Of a stretch of DNA of 14,327 nt, positions 3,155 through 8,394 are shown one piece after another. Location: NCBI GenBank assembly GCA_049509455.1, contig JBEKZX010000051.1:1-14327 (forward strand), given 5' to 3'. The notes under the pieces are model-generated. The model saw only the letters and a list, made by a program, of their open reading frames with translations, was not told where the DNA came from and did no database searches. Both the position numbers and the translations under genes were made by a program. Position 1 is the stretch's first letter. Every line of letters starts with the position of its first letter. This DNA is from Conexivisphaerales archaeon (GTDB lineage Archaea; Thermoproteota; Nitrososphaeria; Conexivisphaerales; DTJL01).

Positions 3155-5152
3155 GTGTCCAGCCTAGAAATTAAGAAGGTGGCCGTCGTCGGGGCCGGCG
3201 AAATGGGCCATGGCATCGCCCAGCTGCTGGCCCAGAACGGTCTCGAGGTCCGCCTCTTGGACAAGTACCCGGAAGCGCTGCAGAAGGCCAAGGGCAGGAT
3301 AGAGGCCGACCTCAAGAGGCTTGTCGAACGGCAGAAGGTCAGCGATCAGGAGGCCAAGACCGTCATGGCGAGGATAGCGTTCACTGGCGATCTGTCGGCA
3401 GCCGTGAGGGAAGCCGACCTGGTAATTGAAGCCGTCCCGGAGCTTCTTGATCTGAAGAAGTCCATCTTCAGGGAGGTGGATTCAGCGGCGCCTTCAGCCG
3501 CCATCTTGGCATCAAACACTTCAAACATCAGGATATCTGAGTTGGCCGCCGCGACTTCGCGACCAGACAAGGTCGTGGGTCTCCACTTCTTCAACCCGCC
3601 CACCAGGATGAAGCTGGTCGAGGTCATCCCCAGCTCCCTGACCGATCCGAGGGTCGTCGAGGCCGTTTCCTCACTCTGCATCAAGCTGGGGAGGACGCCC
3701 GTGAAAGTGGCCAAGGACGTCCCAGGTTTCATCGTCAACAGGATAAACGCCGCCGACATACTGCTCTTCGGCCTGATCCTCGACAAGGGGATGGCCGCGC
3801 CTGAAGAAGTGGACTCTTACGCTAAAGCGCAGGGGCTGCCGATGGGGCCATACGAGCTCCTCGACTTCGTGGGCATCGACGTCGCCAACGACTCCCTTGA
3901 GTACTTCGCCGCGGCGCTCTCGCCAGAATACGGCAAGACGCAGGTCTTCAAGCGGATGGTGAAGGAGAAGAAACTGGGGAGGAAGACCGGCAGCGGCTTC
4001 TATGACTGGGCTTCAGGCAAGGCCGACATCCCCAAGGCCGAGCCGACCGACAAGCTCTCCATGATGGACCTCTTCTCCGTCGAAATCAACGAAGCGGTCA
4101 AGCTCATAGAGGAAGGAGTCGCCACCCCCGACGACATCGACAAGTCCGTCATGCTGGGCATGAACAGGCCGTTCGGCCCCATATCTGTCGCCAAGAGCTT
4201 CACCAACGCCGAAATCAGGTCGAAGCTGGAGGAGATGGCGACCAGATTCGACTGCCCGCTCTTCGCTCCCGCCAAGTCGATACTGGAGGGTAAGCTGCGC
4301 GAAGCAATAGAAGGAAGGCTCCAGGCGGAGCACGCGCCGCAGGCGACGGCGGCTCCGTCCGGGCTTGCGGCGAAGGTCAGCCTCCCCATTTACGTGGAGA
4401 GGCTAGGCGGAAGGGTGGCACGAATAGTGATTAACAGGCCCAAGCACAACACCCTGAACGCCGAAGTCCTGGACGGCCTTGACAAGATACTGGACGAGCT
4501 CTGGGACGACAAAGAGGTCACCGTCGTCCTCGTGACGGGGCAGGGACCCACGTTCTCGGCGGGCGCCGACCTCTCACAATTCTTCGCCACATCCCTGGAC
4601 TTTATGGATTTCGCCGCGAGGGGGGCGAGGCTTTTCAAGCGACTGACGGATTTCCCGAAACTGACCATAGCTGTCATGAAGGGATCTGCCTTGGGCGGCG
4701 GCCTGGAGCTTGCCCTCTCATGCGACCTGAGGATAGGCACCGAGGACGTAAAGATGGGATTCACGGAGGTCACCCTGGGCATTGTCCCGGGTTGGTCCGG
4801 AACCCAGAGGCTCACCAAACTAATCGGCTTATCCAGGGCTTCCCAGCTCATACTCACCGGGAACAAGATCTCTGGAAAGGAGGCCCTAGGACTGGGGATT
4901 CTCTTCACGCTGGCACCCCCGGGTGACCCCGACGCCTATGCTGAACAGGTGGCTTCGGAACTGGCTTCGAAGGTCGCCCCAGTCGCCTTGGCGTTGGCCA
5001 AGAAGCTGATCAACAGGGGAGGCGAGGTCCCGTCCGATGTCGGGCTTGAGATGGAGGCTATGGCGATGGGCATCCTCTTCGGCACGGATGACCTAAAGGA
5101 AGGCATCTCCGCCTTCTTCCAGAAGCGGAAACCGGAGTTCAAGGGCAAGTGA
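3155..5152 (+). CDS. 3-hydroxyacyl-CoA dehydrogenase / enoyl-CoA hydratase fusion (archaeal order: dehydrogenase N-terminal, crotonase C-terminal)
   Basis: Rossmann VVGAGEMGHGIA, IEAVPE, SNTS, catalytic HFFNP, GFIVNR, LGRKTGSGFY. Crotonase part has FSAGADL, GGGLEL (Glu1) and FTEVTLGIVPGWSGTQRL (Glu2). Confidence 0.95.
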   Translation: MSSLEIKKVAVVGAGEMGHGIAQLLAQNGLEVRLLDKYPEALQKAKGRIEADLKRLVERQKVSDQEAKTVMARIAFTGDLSAAVREADLVIEAVPELLDLKKSIFREVDSAAPSAAILASNTSNIRISELAAATSRPDKVVGLHFFNPPTRMKLVEVIPSSLTDPRVVEAVSSLCIKLGRTPVKVAKDVPGFIVNRINAADILLFGLILDKGMAAPEEVDSYAKAQGLPMGPYELLDFVGIDVANDSLEYFAAALSPEYGKTQVFKRMVKEKKLGRKTGSGFYDWASGKADIPKAEPTDKLSMMDLFSVEINEAVKLIEEGVATPDDIDKSVMLGMNRPFGPISVAKSFTNAEIRSKLEEMATRFDCPLFAPAKSILEGKLREAIEGRLQAEHAPQATAAPSGLAAKVSLPIYVERLGGRVARIVINRPKHNTLNAEVLDGLDKILDELWDDKEVTVVLVTGQGPTFSAGADLSQFFATSLDFMDFAARGARLFKRLTDFPKLTIAVMKGSALGGGLELALSCDLRIGTEDVKMGFTEVTLGIVPGWSGTQRLTKLIGLSRASQLILTGNKISGKEALGLGILFTLAPPGDPDAYAEQVASELASKVAPVALALAKKLINRGGEVPSDVGLEMEAMAMGILFGTDDLKEGISAFFQKRKPEFKGK

Positions 5153-6342
5153 TTGGATTGGAGGACGCTTACGTCGTCGACTTTCAAAGGACGCCCTTCT
5201 CCAAGTCCAAGCCCTCCGAGCCCGAGAAGGACGCCTTCAACTCCGTCAGGATGGACCAGGGACTCGCACTTCTGATCGGCAGGGTTGTGCTGAGGACGGG
5301 GGTCCAAGGTCATGAGATCGGCGACGTGATCACCGGCTGCGCCCTCCAGGTCGACGAGAATTGGCTCTACGGTGGAAGGCACCCGATCCTCCTCGCCGGC
5401 CTCCCCGTCTCCGTCCCAGGGATGGCGCTGGACAGGGCGTGCGCCTCCTCGATGAACGCCATCTCCACCGGTTCGTTCGAGATCATGACGGGTCATTCGG
5501 ATGTCGTCCTCGCAGGGGGAATGGAACACATGACTCATGTCCCCATGTCCAACAACCCGCACATGGCGGTCAATTCGAGGCTCATACTGAGGCCCGAATA
5601 CATGAAGTATCAGATGAACGTCGGCTACGTAATGGGCCTGACCGCAGAGAAGCTGGCAAGCGAAAGCGGCATTAAGAGAGAGACGATGGACGCATTCTCG
5701 GTCGAATCGCACAGGCGGGCGGCCGCATCCCTCGAAGCGGGCTGGTTCAAAGACGAGCTAATGCCGATGAAGGTCGAGTCAGGAGGGAAGGAGATCATGG
5801 TGGAGGAGGACCTCAGCATCAGGAAGGATCCCTCATTGGAGCAGCTTTCGAAGCTGCCTTCTGTCTTCAAGGACGGAGGGACGATCACCGCAGGCAACTC
5901 GTCCACCCTCAGCGCAGGAGCCTCCTTGGTCGCCCTGATGTCCGGAGCCAAGGTCAAGGAACATGGAGCCTCACCACTGGCCAAGATTGTCTCGTTCGGC
6001 TGGGCCGGCGTGGAGCCCAGCCTGATGGGCAAGGGACCGGTGCCTGCCAGCCTCAAGGCCCTCGCGAAGGCTGGAGTGAAACCTGAGGAGGTCGACCTGT
6101 GGGAGATCAACGAAGCCTTCGCCGTAGTCGTCCTTTACGCCATGAAAGAGCTGGGCATCGACCATCAGAGGTTGAACATCCACGGCGGCGCCATCGCCCT
6201 GGGTCACCCGCTCGGCGCCACGGGGGCCCGGCTCGTGGGTACTCTGGCCAGGCAGCTTCACGTCAGCGGCAAGAGGTACGGAGTCGCCGCGCTCTGCGTC
6301 GGCGGAGGACAGGGCTTCGCTACGGTCCTAGAACGGGCTTGA
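5149..6342 (+). CDS. Acetyl-CoA C-acyltransferase (thiolase)
   Basis: Catalytic Cys in RACASS, NEAFA, GGAIALGHPLGATG (His), ALCVGGGQG (second Cys). Start overlaps the upstream stop (GTGA). Confidence 0.95.
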   Translation: MIGLEDAYVVDFQRTPFSKSKPSEPEKDAFNSVRMDQGLALLIGRVVLRTGVQGHEIGDVITGCALQVDENWLYGGRHPILLAGLPVSVPGMALDRACASSMNAISTGSFEIMTGHSDVVLAGGMEHMTHVPMSNNPHMAVNSRLILRPEYMKYQMNVGYVMGLTAEKLASESGIKRETMDAFSVESHRRAAASLEAGWFKDELMPMKVESGGKEIMVEEDLSIRKDPSLEQLSKLPSVFKDGGTITAGNSSTLSAGASLVALMSGAKVKEHGASPLAKIVSFGWAGVEPSLMGKGPVPASLKALAKAGVKPEEVDLWEINEAFAVVVLYAMKELGIDHQRLNIHGGAIALGHPLGATGARLVGTLARQLHVSGKRYGVAALCVGGGQGFATVLERA

Positions 6343-6360
6343 CCTTTCGACTGCCATAGA

Positions 6361-6720
6361 ATGGATCTAAAGGCCTCGTTCTACTCGGCCCTCCTGATGG
6401 CGAGCGAGATAGGGGACGTCAACAGGTTCCAGGATTCGTCCTCCCTTGTCTGATACGCCGGCCTCGCTCCTTCCATCCATTCATCTGGAGGGACGACGTA
6501 TCACGGCGGGATAACGAAGCAGGGGAGCCCCTACCTGAGGTGGATACTGAACCAGTGCGTCAGGGTCCACATGAGGGCGGAGCCGGACGGGTCCGTGGCA
6601 TCGTTCTATACCAGGCTGGCTAGGAAGAAGGGGAACTCCAAGGCCGTGGTGGCCGCCTCCGCGAAGCTCCTGAAGGTGGCCTGCTGGGTCCTCAGGGAGA
6701 GGAGGGAATATCACAGTTAG
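6361..6720 (+). pseudogene. IS110-family transposase, C-terminal (Transposase_20-type) fragment with in-frame stop; RuvC-like DEDD domain missing
   Basis: Reads MDLKASFYSALLMASEIGDVNRFQDSSSLV*YAGLAPSIHSSGGTTYHGGITKQGSPYLRWILNQCVRVHM...FYTRLARKKGNSKAVVAASAKLLKVACWVLRERREYHS*. This contains the EIGD..RF, YAGLxP...SG, G.ITKxG..YLR and KAxVA..KLL motifs. TGA at 6451-6453. The resemblance starts at about 6379. Confidence 0.9.
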
Positions 6721-6881
6721 GGGGCACGGCCGCATCCATCTTTGTGAGGAGGGCGTGCCTCGGTAACATAAACGCGGTGTGCCCCTTGACAAGGTGCCGG
6801 AGGTACGATAGTGGGGGAGAGCCCCGAATGGGTAATTGCCATACCTCTGTCGCCGCGTTCAAATGTCGCCCACATGGGTAA
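6376..6881 (+). mobile_element. 5'-truncated IS110/IS1111-type insertion sequence remnant, right end predicted at the AA core 6880-6881
   Basis: Transposase fragment followed by a structured 3' non-coding region. The right end is inferred from RNA-loop matches to 6874-6886. The left boundary is approximate. Confidence 0.65.
6719..6854 (+). ncRNA. Putative bridge/seek RNA (two stem-internal loop-hairpin modules) in the IS right end
   Basis: Module 1: outer stem 6719-6733/6774-6787, 12x12-nt internal loop (ATCCATCTTTGT / GGTAACATAAAC), inner stem GAGG/CCTC. Module 2: outer stem 6793-6805/6842-6854, internal loop (CGATAGTG / GAATGGGTAATTGCCA), inner stem GGGG/CCCC. Confidence 0.65.
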
Positions 6882-6918
6882 AGATGATTAACCACGAGGG
6901 TTTAGGCTCTGCCTTGAA

Positions 6919-7005
6919 GCCGGGGTACCCTAGCCTGGTAGGGGGCAGGCCTGCTAAGTCTGTGGGCGCAAGCCCTCGTGGGTTCGAATCCCACCCCCGG
7001 CGCCA
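6919..7005 (+). tRNA. tRNA-Ser(GCT), intron-less, CCA encoded
   Basis: Acceptor GCCGGGG/CCCCGGC, D-arm CCC/GGG, anticodon stem CAGGC/GTCTG with loop CT-GCT-AA (anticodon 6953-6955), long variable arm GGGC-GCAA-GCCC, T-arm GTGGG-TTCGAAT-CCCAC, discriminator G. Confidence 0.97.
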
Positions 7006-7170
7006 TTCTACTATTGTCTCTTTATCCATACCGTCACTACGCTACTGCTACACGGGATTTGGTCGTCACCAATAAGCGTCTGCGAGGAGCTCCATTAGTT
7101 CGAACGTGCGGGATAGGTCGCAGTGAATCGGCCACGTATCGGGATAGACAGCATCCGCTAGCGTCTCATT

Positions 7171-8142
7171 CTAGTAGTATCCCTCAGAAACGAAATCACA
7201 GATATCGAGGAGGGCGGTCCTCGCTTCGCACGGCCTGATGGGCTCTAGCAGCTTTCTTGCAGATTCTACGCAGCGGGAAGCTTTCTTCTCGCAGTAATCC
7301 GCCGAGCCGTACTTGAAGACTATTCCTTTCACCCTCTTGATTTCGTCTCCGCTGATATGTCCCTTGTTGAAGAGGCTCTTGATGTAGCCTCTCTCCCCAT
7401 CAGAGCACTTGGATAGGGCATGAACGAGCACTATGCTCTTCTTCCCACCCTTCACGTCTGTGAAGACAGGCTTGCCAAGCACCTTTTCATCCCCAATAAT
7501 GTCGAGAAGGTCGTCGCGGATTTGATAGGCCATGCCCAGCAGCTCTCCGAATCTGTAAGCTGTATCGGCCTCTCCATCAGAGGCGCCTCCCACTATCGCT
7601 CCGCTGGCTGAAGGGGCAGCAAGAAGCGCGGCCGTCTTGAGCCTGATCATCTTTTCGTACTCGTCCTCGCTGACGTCCTCCCTCTGGGCCATCTGAAGGT
7701 CGAGGAACTCGCCCATGGTTGTCGCCCTGCAACACTCCCCAACGAGGTCGAAGAGCCTGCAGAGCCTCTCGCTTTCCATATCCCTGTACCTCGAGACCAT
7801 CCTGGGAACGTTGAAGAGCAACATGTTCGAGGCGAGGATGGCGTTGGACAACCCATACTTGTGCACTATGGATTCATTCCCCCTTCTTGTATCGGACTGG
7901 TCGATTACGTCATCCTCCACGAGGGCAGCTGAGTGCGCGAGTTCGTAGGCAACCGCCATTGGGATGGCAGCCTCGTAACTGCCGGAGAAGACCTCGCACC
8001 AGAGCAGGGCGAGGACTGCTCTGACTCTCTTCCCGCCGTTGGAGAGAGAATCGCTGACGGCCCCTGCCAGGGTCGAATCATCAAACGGAAGATGAGAGAG
8101 CTCCGAATTCACGCTGTCCACGTACTTCGCCAGACCGGCCAT
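7171..8142 (-). CDS. Trans-polyprenyl diphosphate synthase (IspA/IdsA superfamily), probably medium/long-chain
   Basis: GGKRVR, first Asp-rich motif VEDDVIDQSDTRRG, KTA, second motif YQIRDDLLD, GKPVFTDVKGGKKS. ATG 8142 (or 8160) is preferred over 8199 because it gives a family-typical N-terminal length and avoids overlap with SRP helix 5. Confidence 0.9.
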   Translation of the reverse strand: MAGLAKYVDSVNSELSHLPFDDSTLAGAVSDSLSNGGKRVRAVLALLWCEVFSGSYEAAIPMAVAYELAHSAALVEDDVIDQSDTRRGNESIVHKYGLSNAILASNMLLFNVPRMVSRYRDMESERLCRLFDLVGECCRATTMGEFLDLQMAQREDVSEDEYEKMIRLKTAALLAAPSASGAIVGGASDGEADTAYRFGELLGMAYQIRDDLLDIIGDEKVLGKPVFTDVKGGKKSIVLVHALSKCSDGERGYIKSLFNKGHISGDEIKRVKGIVFKYGSADYCEKKASRCVESARKLLEPIRPCEARTALLDICDFVSEGYY

Positions 8143-8176
8143 CCGTGATAGAGGTATCATATCAGCAGCAAGCCCT

Positions 8177-8394
8177 GGCTGATGGAGCGACATCGGCATC
8201 TTTAGCCTTTACATCGCCCCGCCCGAGGAGGGTCATTTCGAAGGGGGAAGGTCCCTTAGAAGGAAGGGGTTCCAACCACGAACCGGCGAAACGAGTTAGG
8301 CCCGAGAGGGGGCAGCTCTAAATCGGGGTACTGGCGCTGCTGGGCCTGCGTGGGGGATTCGCGCGCTAGACCGAAGCCTCCTCCGGATTCAGTC
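8177..8394 (+). ncRNA. ffs: Signal recognition particle (7S) RNA; core from helix 5 through helices 6 and 8, true ends uncertain
   Basis: Helix 8 GAGTTAGG-CCC-GAGA-GGG-GGCAGCTC (8293-8318) aligns to the SRP54-binding motif (CAGG..GNRA..AGCA). Helix 6 at 8244-8277 has a GAAG loop. A colinear imperfect helix 5 pairs 8177-8235 with 8332-8394 (GGCTGA/TCAGTC, TGGAG/CTCCG, TCGG/CCGA, TAGC/GCTA, CCCC/GGGG, GCCC/GGGC, GTCA/TGGC). Confidence 0.82.

What the first reader, a model, noticed from the sequence alone, without database searches (positions are those of the whole stretch)
6719..6854. Archaeal bridge/seek-RNA-like structure preserved behind a dead IS110 transposase
Directly after the stop codon are two consecutive stem/large internal loop/small hairpin modules. 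This is the architecture of IS110 bridge RNAs (target-binding loop, then donor-binding loop), and a 3' location is typical of the IS1111 group. The stems look intact although the protein is broken, so the RNA might still guide an intact recombinase in trans. It is a candidate RNA-guided recombination system from an archaeon.
Basis: partly seen in the sequence, partly recalled or inferred. Interest (0 to 1): 0.78.

Follow-up and report, generated by a model that had tools for sequence, protein, structure and literature searches.

The report
Orphaned archaeal IS1111-type bridge RNA
The folded stretch behind the broken transposase is the guide ("bridge/seek") RNA gene of an archaeal jumping element. 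Its loops still spell out the site it inserted into and the element's own ends, so it is a well-supported but ordinary new member of a mechanism described in bacteria in 2024.

Summary
Confirmed, with corrections. Window 6721-6880 is the long right-end non-coding region of a 5'-truncated IS1111-type (IS110-family) element in a Nitrososphaeria archaeon.

- **RNA gene.** Bases 6718-6842 encode a two-loop bridge/seekRNA. A covariance model built from ten relatives finds it in 17 of 151 genomes of the class. On 48 distinct copies 89% of cells pair, and 21 of 31 pairs show compensatory change.
- **Loop 1 spells the insertion site.** 6737-6743 is complementary to the DNA right of the element (6880-6886). 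6764-6772 equals the left half-site plus the TA core. The uninterrupted site, upstream of the orthologous tRNA-Ser in a sister genome, reads as the two guides predict.
- **Loop 2 matches the element's ends.** 6828-6834 repeats the right terminus (6874-6880). 6804-6809 pairs with the left end, which lies at the end of contig C52.
- **Correction.** The covarying stem is 6794-6799/6837-6842.
- **Transposase.** Only the last third remains, with an in-frame TGA. No intact cognate recombinase is assembled, and expression could not be tested, so trans-activity stays open.

The mechanism has been known since 2024, and this scan has already reported archaeal IS1111-type bridge RNAs on other DNA. This is a new member, not a new kind.

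The parts
6352..6375 (.). Rearrangement junction. Homology to the sister genome's thiolase downstream region ends at about 6351, and homology to relatives' transposase genes starts at about 6373-6376.
6373..6720 (+). C-terminal third of an IS110-family (IS1111-type) transposase (Transposase_20 domain). It carries an in-frame TGA at 6451-6453 where relatives have a Ser codon, and ends at stop TAG 6718-6720. The DEDD domain is absent.
6718..6842 (+). Bridge/seekRNA gene (covariance-model match 6714-6848, 109 bits). It has two stem / internal-loop / hairpin modules.
6719..6787 (+). Module 1, the target-binding loop. Stems are 6719-6727/6779-6787 and 6730-6733/6774-6777; the hairpin is 6745-6749/6758-6762.
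6737..6743 (+). Right-target guide (5' side of loop 1). It is complementary to the top strand at 6880-6886 (core A plus right flank).
6764..6772 (+). Left-target guide (3' side of loop 1). It is identical to the left half-site plus TA core plus two bases, as read in the empty site of the sister genome and in the left flank on contig C52.
6794..6842 (+). Module 2, the donor-binding loop. The closing stem is 6794-6799/6837-6842 (C6797.C6839 mismatch), with a 2-bp helix 6809-6810/6829-6830 and hairpin 6814-6817/6822-6825.
6804..6809 (+). Candidate left-donor guide. It pairs (6 bp, one G.U) with the first bases of the left end after the TA core, on contig C52 (L030 1446-1451).
6828..6834 (+). Right-donor guide, identical to the element's right terminus 6874-6880.
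6842..6854 (+). It lies inside the element. Pairing with 6793-6805 is possible but not consistently conserved.
6858..6865 (+). A/T-rich TATA-like box at a fixed distance upstream of the right inverted repeat, conserved in relatives. Its role as a circle-junction or outward promoter is inferred.
6862..6875 (+). Right subterminal inverted repeat (conserved core 6868-6875). Its partner is at the left end on C52. A relative has a perfect 13-nt pair.
6879..6880 (+). TA core, the right terminus of the element.
6881..6887 (+). Right half of the target site. It is shared with the solo right-end remnant on contig C61 and with the empty sites in sister genomes.
6919..7005 (+). tRNA-Ser(GCT). The element sits 38 nt upstream, in its presumed promoter region.

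Best explanation
Window 6718-6842 is the bridge (seek) RNA gene of an IS1111-type insertion sequence of a Nitrososphaeria archaeon. It lies in the element's long right end, which runs to the TA at 6879-6880.

**How it works (by analogy with IS1111/IS110 elements).** The RNA folds into two internal-loop modules and is bound by the element's DEDD recombinase.
- Loop 1 reads the target. Its 5' side (6737-6743) pairs with the top strand to the right of the TA core. Its 3' side (6764-6772) has the sequence of the left half-site plus core, so it pairs with the bottom strand.
- Loop 2 reads the donor, which is the abutted ends of the excised circle. Its 3' side (6828-6834) has the sequence of the right terminus. 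Its 5' side (6804-6809) pairs with the start of the left end.

**History of this copy.** It inserted into the TA of a 14-base site upstream of tRNA-Ser(GCT). A later rearrangement removed the left end and two thirds of the transposase, and the remnant also acquired a nonsense codon. The RNA gene and right end are therefore an orphan.

**Shown here:** homology, conserved covarying structure, guide-to-flank and guide-to-end matches, the empty site, and the truncation.

**Inferred:** that the RNA is made, binds a recombinase and guides recombination.
For: **1. Conservation.** DNA conservation in relatives runs through the stop codon into the non-coding region. It is higher there (74-79%) than in the gene (64-69%).

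**2. Structure.**
- RNAalifold on 10 copies gives two modules, with 12 of 31 pairs compensatory.
- A model built from them finds 28 copies in 11 of 36 genomes of the order, and hits in 17 of 151 genomes of the class. These include 13 and 15 copies in two complete genomes.
- On 48 distinct copies, 89.1% of cells pair against 39-47% when partners are slid. There are 183 compensatory cells against 59 +/- 7 in shuffles, with 0 of 500 shuffles as high.

**3. Element anatomy (IS1111-type).**
- Short left end, long right end.
- A perfect 13-nt subterminal inverted repeat in a relative, with cores conserved across copies.
- The transposase motif GL-P----SG.
- Pfam PF02371 and NCBIfam 'IS110 family RNA-guided transposase'.

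**4. Target guides.**
- The longest match between the loop-1 5' side and an element's own right flank averages 5.65 nt, against 3.66 for other elements' flanks. It reaches 7 nt or more in 12 of 37 own pairs against 16 of 1276 non-own pairs (Fisher p about 8e-13).
- The loop-1 3' side against the left flank averages 5.2 against 3.8, and reaches 7 nt or more in 4 of 18 against 3 of 284.
- In one complete genome two guide variants differing by one base go with flanks differing by the complementary base in 8 of 11 copies.

**5. This copy.**
- Its two guides predict a 14-base site.
- The sister genome's uninterrupted tRNA-Ser upstream region reads exactly that, and two more genomes of the genus nearly so.
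- The left flank on contig C52 is the orthologous left half of that region.

**6. Donor guide.** The loop-2 3' side and the right terminus share an identical 7-mer in 20 of 27 distinct combinations, across three sequence states.

**7. Guide order.** The top-strand match lies 5' of the bottom-strand match and the two overlap at the core, as reported for IS1111-family seekRNAs (PMC11187229).
Against:
- **Folding energy.** The window sequence is not distinguishable from shuffles on energy (z about -1.4). Module 2 does not adopt the consensus as its minimum-energy fold.
- **Alignment bias.** The alignment used for pair counts was fitted to the model's structure, which inflates pairing. Many copies are also related to each other.
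- **Left-donor guide.** The match is short: 6 bp including a wobble here, 5-6 bp in the ammonia-oxidiser copies, and only 3-5 bp in two other lineages.
- **Exceptions.** Some copies show no guide-flank match (for example L097, L122).
- **Defects.** This copy has a C.C and an A.C mismatch in its stems.
- **No match to known models.** No Rfam family matches. The model does not hit the bacterial relatives at 35-45% protein identity. The link to characterised bridge RNAs therefore rests on architecture and logic, not on RNA sequence homology.
Confidence: 0.9

Rival explanations
1. It is the bridge RNA gene by descent, but now only a silent relic. It has no promoter of its own, no cognate recombinase in the cell and no left end to act on, so it does nothing and is recognisable only because the truncation is recent. 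This rival concerns present function, not identity.
For: - The transposase is reduced to its last third, with a nonsense codon.
- The only other cognate piece in the assembly is a 135-aa N-terminal fragment at a contig end.
- The one intact IS110-family gene in the genome (contig C86) is only 40% identical in the C-terminal domain. No copy of this RNA lies next to it.
- The stems carry two mismatches.
- No other genome of the same family has the RNA.
Against: - The model score (109 bits) is within the range of copies next to longer genes (97-139 bits).
- All four guide segments still match their DNA partners without a single change.
- The upstream thiolase gene is on the same strand, so read-through transcription is possible.
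- The assembly is about 95% complete in 140 contigs and may lack an intact copy.
Confidence: 0.6
2. The conserved right-end segment acts as DNA rather than as an RNA: a recombinase-binding or end-recognition site next to the subterminal repeat.
For: The region lies inside the element's end. Loop 2 repeats the terminal 7 bases, which could also be read as a duplicated protein-binding site.
Against: - Compensatory changes preserve pairing in six helices, which a double-stranded DNA site does not require.
- The variable segments track the flanking target DNA, not the element.
- Homologous bacterial elements use an RNA from this region (PMC11187229, PMC11208160).
Confidence: 0.04
3. It is a structured 3' UTR or terminator of the transposase mRNA, with no guiding role.
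For: It starts at the stop codon and is GC-rich and stem-forming.
Against: - There is no T-tract or terminator-like site.
- The two large internal loops are conserved in position but hypervariable in sequence, and they match the flanks.
Confidence: 0.03

Closest known systems
IS1111-group insertion sequences with a 3' seekRNA (ISEc11, ISPa11, ISKpn4, ISPst6; Siddiquee et al. 2024, PMC11187229)
   Same: - DEDD-type transposase family with the GL-P----SG motif.
- Subterminal inverted repeats, short left end, and a long non-coding region downstream of the gene.
- An RNA with a top-strand match 5' of a bottom-strand match, the two overlapping at the insertion point.
- Insertion without target duplication.
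   Different: - The host is an archaeon (Nitrososphaeria).
- The RNA has no detectable sequence similarity to the bacterial relatives' right ends.
- An A/T-rich TATA-like box sits where bacterial elements carry the -35 half of the junction promoter.
- This copy is truncated, and nothing has been tested experimentally.
IS621 / IS110-group bridge RNA (Durrant et al. 2024, PMC11208160)
   Same: - Two internal loops, one for the target and one for the donor.
- Each loop has two guide segments that read opposite strands around a shared core dinucleotide.
- Durrant et al. predicted a bridge RNA in the right end of 93% of IS1111 elements.
   Different: - The RNA lies in the right end, not the left.
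- The order of the guide segments within a loop is reversed.
- The core is TA rather than CT.
- The subterminal repeats are longer.
Archaeal IS110-family elements already catalogued (e.g. ISHvo9 and ISHvo10 in ISfinder; 662 archaeal IS110 recombinases in Vaysset et al. 2024, bioRxiv 10.1101/2024.06.21.599552), and archaeal IS1111-type bridge RNAs noted earlier in this scan (e1-2586528, e1-5681338, e1-5476835)
   Same: Archaeal hosts, the same protein family, and (for the scan's notes) the same reading of a two-loop RNA in the 3' tail that matches the target and the ends.
   Different: This copy is an orphan RNA gene plus right end. Its target can be read three ways: from the guides, from both separated flanks, and from an empty site in a sister genome.

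Membership tests
IS110 family, IS1111 group (element) | DEDD (RuvC-like) N-terminal domain PF01548 together with C-terminal PF02371 | tested here: not met
   The window holds only PF02371, covering profile positions 232-342 of 343 in NCBIfam NF033542. PF01548 is absent from the window. It is present in relatives and in the separated N-terminal piece on contig C52. The window copy therefore derives from such an element but is not an intact member.
IS110 family, IS1111 group (element) | GL-P----S(T)G motif in the C-terminal domain (PMC11187229) | tested here: met
   The translation reads G-L-A-P-S-I-H-S-S-G just after the in-frame stop. Relatives have the same motif.
IS110 family, IS1111 group (element) | Subterminal inverted repeats of 7-17 bp | tested here: met
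   A relative has a perfect 13-nt pair. The 8-nt core is conserved at left and right ends of many copies. The window keeps the right repeat (core 6868-6875), and its partner is on C52.
IS110 family, IS1111 group (element) | Long non-coding region downstream of the transposase and a short left end | tested here: met
   The right end runs 160 nt from the stop to the TA here, and 165-300 nt in relatives. The left end is about 45-60 nt.
IS110 family, IS1111 group (element) | Site-specific insertion without target duplication, with a shared core dinucleotide | tested here: met
   The empty site in the sister genome has one TA. The occupied site has TA at the left junction (C52) and at the right junction (6879-6880).
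Bridge RNA / seekRNA | Conserved structure with two stem / internal-loop modules | tested here: met
   89% of cells pair, 21 of 31 pairs show changes on both sides, and no shuffle of 500 is as high. Caveat: the alignment was fitted to the model.
Bridge RNA / seekRNA | Loop segments complementary to both strands of the target, overlapping at the insertion point, with the top-strand match 5' in IS1111 types | tested here: met
   For the window, a 7-nt and a 9-nt segment together spell the 14-base empty site.
Bridge RNA / seekRNA | Second loop matching the donor (both element ends) | tested here: inconclusive
   The right-end match is clear and covaries: an identical 7-mer in 20 of 27 combinations, across three states. 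The left-end match is short (3-6 bp) and uneven between lineages.
Bridge RNA / seekRNA | The RNA is transcribed, binds the recombinase and is required for transposition | not testable with these tools
No biochemical data exist.
Any Rfam family | Match at or above the gathering score | tested here: not met
   Only the tRNA matches. In 6600-6920 the permissive search lists only chance-level hits.

The most novel reading that the evidence does not exclude
This archaeal lineage of IS1111-type elements may be aimed by its RNA at promoter TATA regions. Here the target is the TA inside the A/T-rich box about 40 nt upstream of tRNA-Ser. The lineage also carries its own TATA-like box at a fixed 14-18 nt from the right terminus.

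In the excised circle that box would drive the transposase across the junction, an archaeal counterpart of the bacterial -35/-10 junction promoter. In the integrated state it would read outward and could replace the promoter the element has split.

In addition, the orphan RNA gene in the window may still be transcribed by read-through from the thiolase gene, and used in trans by a cognate recombinase from a copy missing from the assembly.
Probability: 0.25. Interest if true: 0.55.

Novelty: new member of a known kind. Interest (0 to 1): 0.35.

Why it matters
- It adds a clean, internally cross-checked archaeal example of RNA-guided IS1111-type transposition. The guides, both flanks and an empty site all agree.
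- It defines a covariance model that recovers the RNA in about a tenth of sampled Nitrososphaeria genomes, including multi-copy ammonia-oxidiser genomes.
- These compact archaeal recombinase/RNA pairs could be sources of new programmable recombinases. The multi-copy genomes with two guide variants offer a natural case of retargeting.
- For annotation, it shows that a "pseudogene plus GC-rich spacer" next to a tRNA can be read as a dated insertion event.
- It does not change what is known about the mechanism.

Tried and rejected
- **Right boundary at 6838/6839.** I first took this as the boundary because nucleotide matches to relatives stop there and 6839-6887 recurs on contig C61 without the element. 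This was rejected once the subterminal repeat and the common right terminus were found further right. The C61 piece is a solo right-end remnant that keeps the same 7-base target half.
It is only weakly and unevenly supported.
- **Single-sequence folding significance.** Not significant.
- **Rfam.** No family matches.
- **Recoding of the in-frame TGA.** A second copy in another genome has a stop at the same Ser codon, but it is TAA, and all other copies have Ser or Ala. These are independent nonsense mutations.
- **Simple inversion to explain the split element.** This does not fit. The sister genome's neighbour of the thiolase gene lies inside contig C86 with unrelated DNA upstream.
- **Model search on bacterial relatives and on the other IS110-family elements of this genus.** No hits.
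- **Genome contigs protein scan.** It returned mostly distant bacterial relatives, because the peptide patterns were narrow.

Full report
**What is in the window**

The + strand carries a thiolase gene (5149-6342). After it comes an open frame whose homology to IS110-family transposases starts at about 6373 and ends at TAG 6718-6720. A tRNA-Ser(GCT) lies at 6919-7005.

The transposase remnant matches Pfam Transposase_20 (E 4e-18). It aligns to positions 232-342 of the 343-position NCBIfam model 'IS110 family RNA-guided transposase'. It has an in-frame TGA at 6451-6453 where relatives have a serine codon. The DEDD catalytic domain is not in the window.

**The observation**

The energy is not unusual, however: z = -1.43, with 12 of 200 shuffles folding as well, and the same holds for 6718-6843. 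The single sequence therefore proves nothing, and the test has to be comparative.

**Relatives and the true extent of the element**

A DNA search of related genomes showed homology running from the gene through the stop codon into the non-coding region. Identity there (74-79%) is higher than in the gene (64-69%).

I first took 6838/6839 as the element's end, for two reasons. The matches stop there, and 6839-6887 recurs at 98% identity on contig C61 without the element. That was wrong.

- In a complete relative's genome a perfect 13-nt inverted repeat brackets the element.
- The repeat cores, followed by a few bases and TA, are conserved at the ends of many copies.

In the window the right repeat core is 6868-6875 and the element ends with TA at 6879-6880. 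The C61 piece is a solo right-end remnant. The finding's interval therefore lies wholly inside the element's 160-nt right end.

The layout is that of the IS1111 group (PMC11187229, PMC11208160): a short left end of about 45-60 nt, a long right end, subterminal repeats and the GL-P----SG motif.

**Structure**

- RNAalifold on ten copies gave two stem / internal-loop / hairpin modules, with 12 of 31 pairs compensatory.
- A covariance model built from them found 28 copies in 11 of 36 genomes of the order.
- It found hits in 17 of 151 sampled genomes of the class, including 13 and 15 copies in two complete genomes.
- A named relative is a 'Nitrososphaeria archaeon'.
- No other genome of the window's own family has the RNA.

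On 48 distinct copies, 89.1% of cells pair, against 39-47% when partners are slid. 21 of 31 pairs change on both sides. There are 183 compensatory cells against 59 +/- 7 in shuffles. The alignment was fitted to the model and the copies are related, so these numbers are generous. The slid controls and the variety of pair types still make the helices convincing.

The window copy scores 109 bits, against a range of 97-139 bits for the better copies. It maps onto all six helices, with one C.C mismatch (6797/6839) and one A.C mismatch (6734/6773).

The conserved closing stem of module 2 is 6794-6799/6837-6842.

**Guides: the decisive evidence**

The 5' side of loop 1 is hypervariable, even between sister copies in one genome. 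In copy after copy it is complementary to the DNA immediately to the right of the terminal TA.

| Comparison | Own flank | Other elements' flanks | 7 nt or more, own | 7 nt or more, other |
|---|---|---|---|---|
| Loop-1 5' side vs right flank (mean longest match) | 5.65 nt | 3.66 nt | 12 of 37 | 16 of 1276 |
| Loop-1 3' side vs left flank plus TA | 5.2 nt | 3.8 nt | 4 of 18 | 3 of 284 |

Fisher's test on the first comparison gives p of about 8e-13. Several matches are 9-10 nt and perfect.

In one complete genome two guide variants differ by one base. They go with flanks that differ by the complementary base in 8 of 11 copies. The three exceptions sit at the other variant's site, as expected if the RNA acts in trans.

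The order of the matches (top strand first, overlapping at the core) is the one reported for IS1111-family seekRNAs (PMC11187229).

**This copy**

- 6737-6743 pairs with 6880-6886.
- 6764-6772 predicts the left half-site, the TA and two further bases.
- Together they predict a 14-base target.

The sister genome of the same genus, which lacks the element, has that sequence with a single TA upstream of its orthologous tRNA-Ser. Two further genomes of the genus have near-identical sites.

The left end of the element is in the same assembly, at the end of contig C52. It comprises a subterminal repeat and 135 codons of a DEDD domain that is 55-62% identical to the relatives' N-termini. Its left flank is orthologous to the left part of that tRNA-Ser upstream region. 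C52's end and window 6373-6880 are therefore two halves of one insertion.

**Loop 2**

Its 3' side (6828-6834) is identical to the right terminus (6874-6880). Across the family this 7-mer is identical between RNA and terminus in 20 of 27 distinct combinations, through three sequence states. The rest differ by one base.

Its 5' side (6804-6809) can pair with the first six bases of the left end after TA, with one wobble. The ammonia-oxidiser copies show 5-6 bp at the same place, while two other lineages show only 3-5 bp. I rate the left-donor guide as probable, not shown.

**How the copy died**

Homology to the sister genome downstream of the thiolase stop ends at about 6351. The sister's next gene lies in this genome inside contig C86, with unrelated DNA upstream. 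The thiolase/transposase junction (6352-6375) thus reflects a rearrangement seen from two contigs, not merely a contig-end artefact. A composite of strains cannot be excluded, however. Roughly 90 codons between the C52 piece and the window piece are not in the assembly.

**Can it still work?**

- The only intact IS110-family gene in the assembly (C86, 351 aa) is 40% identical to the remnant's C-terminal domain and has no copy of this RNA.
- There is no promoter evidence for the RNA. Read-through from the thiolase gene is possible.

I put present activity at no more than about one in three.

**Comparison and novelty**

The logic and architecture are those of bridge/seek RNAs of IS110/IS1111 elements, described in 2024. 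Bridge RNAs were predicted in 93% of ISfinder IS1111 elements (PMC11208160). Archaeal IS110-family recombinases are catalogued (10.1101/2024.06.21.599552; ISHvo9 and ISHvo10 in PMC11187229). Large-scale mining of bridge RNA variants is under way (10.64898/2026.10.21.760802).

This scan has already reported archaeal IS1111-type bridge RNAs on other DNA, including in ammonia-oxidising archaea. The window's sequence itself had not been seen.

No Rfam family matches, and the model does not reach bacterial relatives. The finding is a well-supported new member of a known kind. Its particular merit is that the target can be read independently from the guides, from the two separated flanks and from an empty site.

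Noticed in passing
window 6858-6865, and the same place in relatives (e.g. L097, L099, L100, L125, L137, L157 right ends): An A/T-rich TATA-like box lies 6-8 nt upstream of the right inverted repeat in nearly all copies, about 14-18 nt from the terminus. It could be the archaeal equivalent of the circle-junction promoter of bacterial IS110/IS1111 elements. When integrated it would read outward, here towards tRNA-Ser.
   Followed up: partly
G000 contig C61 19656-19704 (L002 1501-1549): A solo 49-nt remnant of the same element's right end (98% identical to window 6839-6887). It keeps the terminal repeat, the TA and the same 7-base right target half, then has a different flank. It is either a second, independently truncated insertion at a guide-matching site or a copied fragment.
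   Followed up: partly
G000 contig C52 end (L030 1444-1857): Left end and first 135 codons of the same element type, cut by the contig end. Its left flank is orthologous to the tRNA-Ser upstream region of sister genomes, so this is the missing left half of the window's insertion.
   Followed up: yes
window 7006-8359: About 1.35 kb immediately downstream of tRNA-Ser is absent from the otherwise 95%-identical sister-genome locus. It includes a polyprenyl synthetase gene (7171-8199, minus strand). This is an indel next to the tRNA.
   Followed up: partly
window 6343-6375 and G000 contig C86 about 16552: The thiolase gene's downstream neighbour in the sister genome lies elsewhere in this genome (C86). 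The locus has therefore been rearranged, with one breakpoint inside the insertion sequence.
   Followed up: partly
L161, L150-L156 (G099, nine near-identical copies) and L137 (G134): In multi-copy genomes the transposase reads as two overlapping frames (G099), or shifts frame near the C-terminus (G134), in otherwise near-identical copies. This is either a programmed frameshift or homopolymer errors in the assemblies.
   Followed up: no
L024 1394-1590 (G010, about 1.8 kb upstream of the copy in L003): A second right-end-like remnant lies in tandem. It lacks module 1 of the RNA through an internal deletion but keeps module 2 and a repeat-like terminus. It sits next to a tRNA-Glu gene.
   Followed up: no
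window 6451-6453 and L035 (G024 contig 71): Two copies in different genomes carry a stop at the same serine codon of the transposase (TGA here, TAA there). All other copies have Ser or Ala, so these look like independent nonsense mutations, not recoding.
   Followed up: yes
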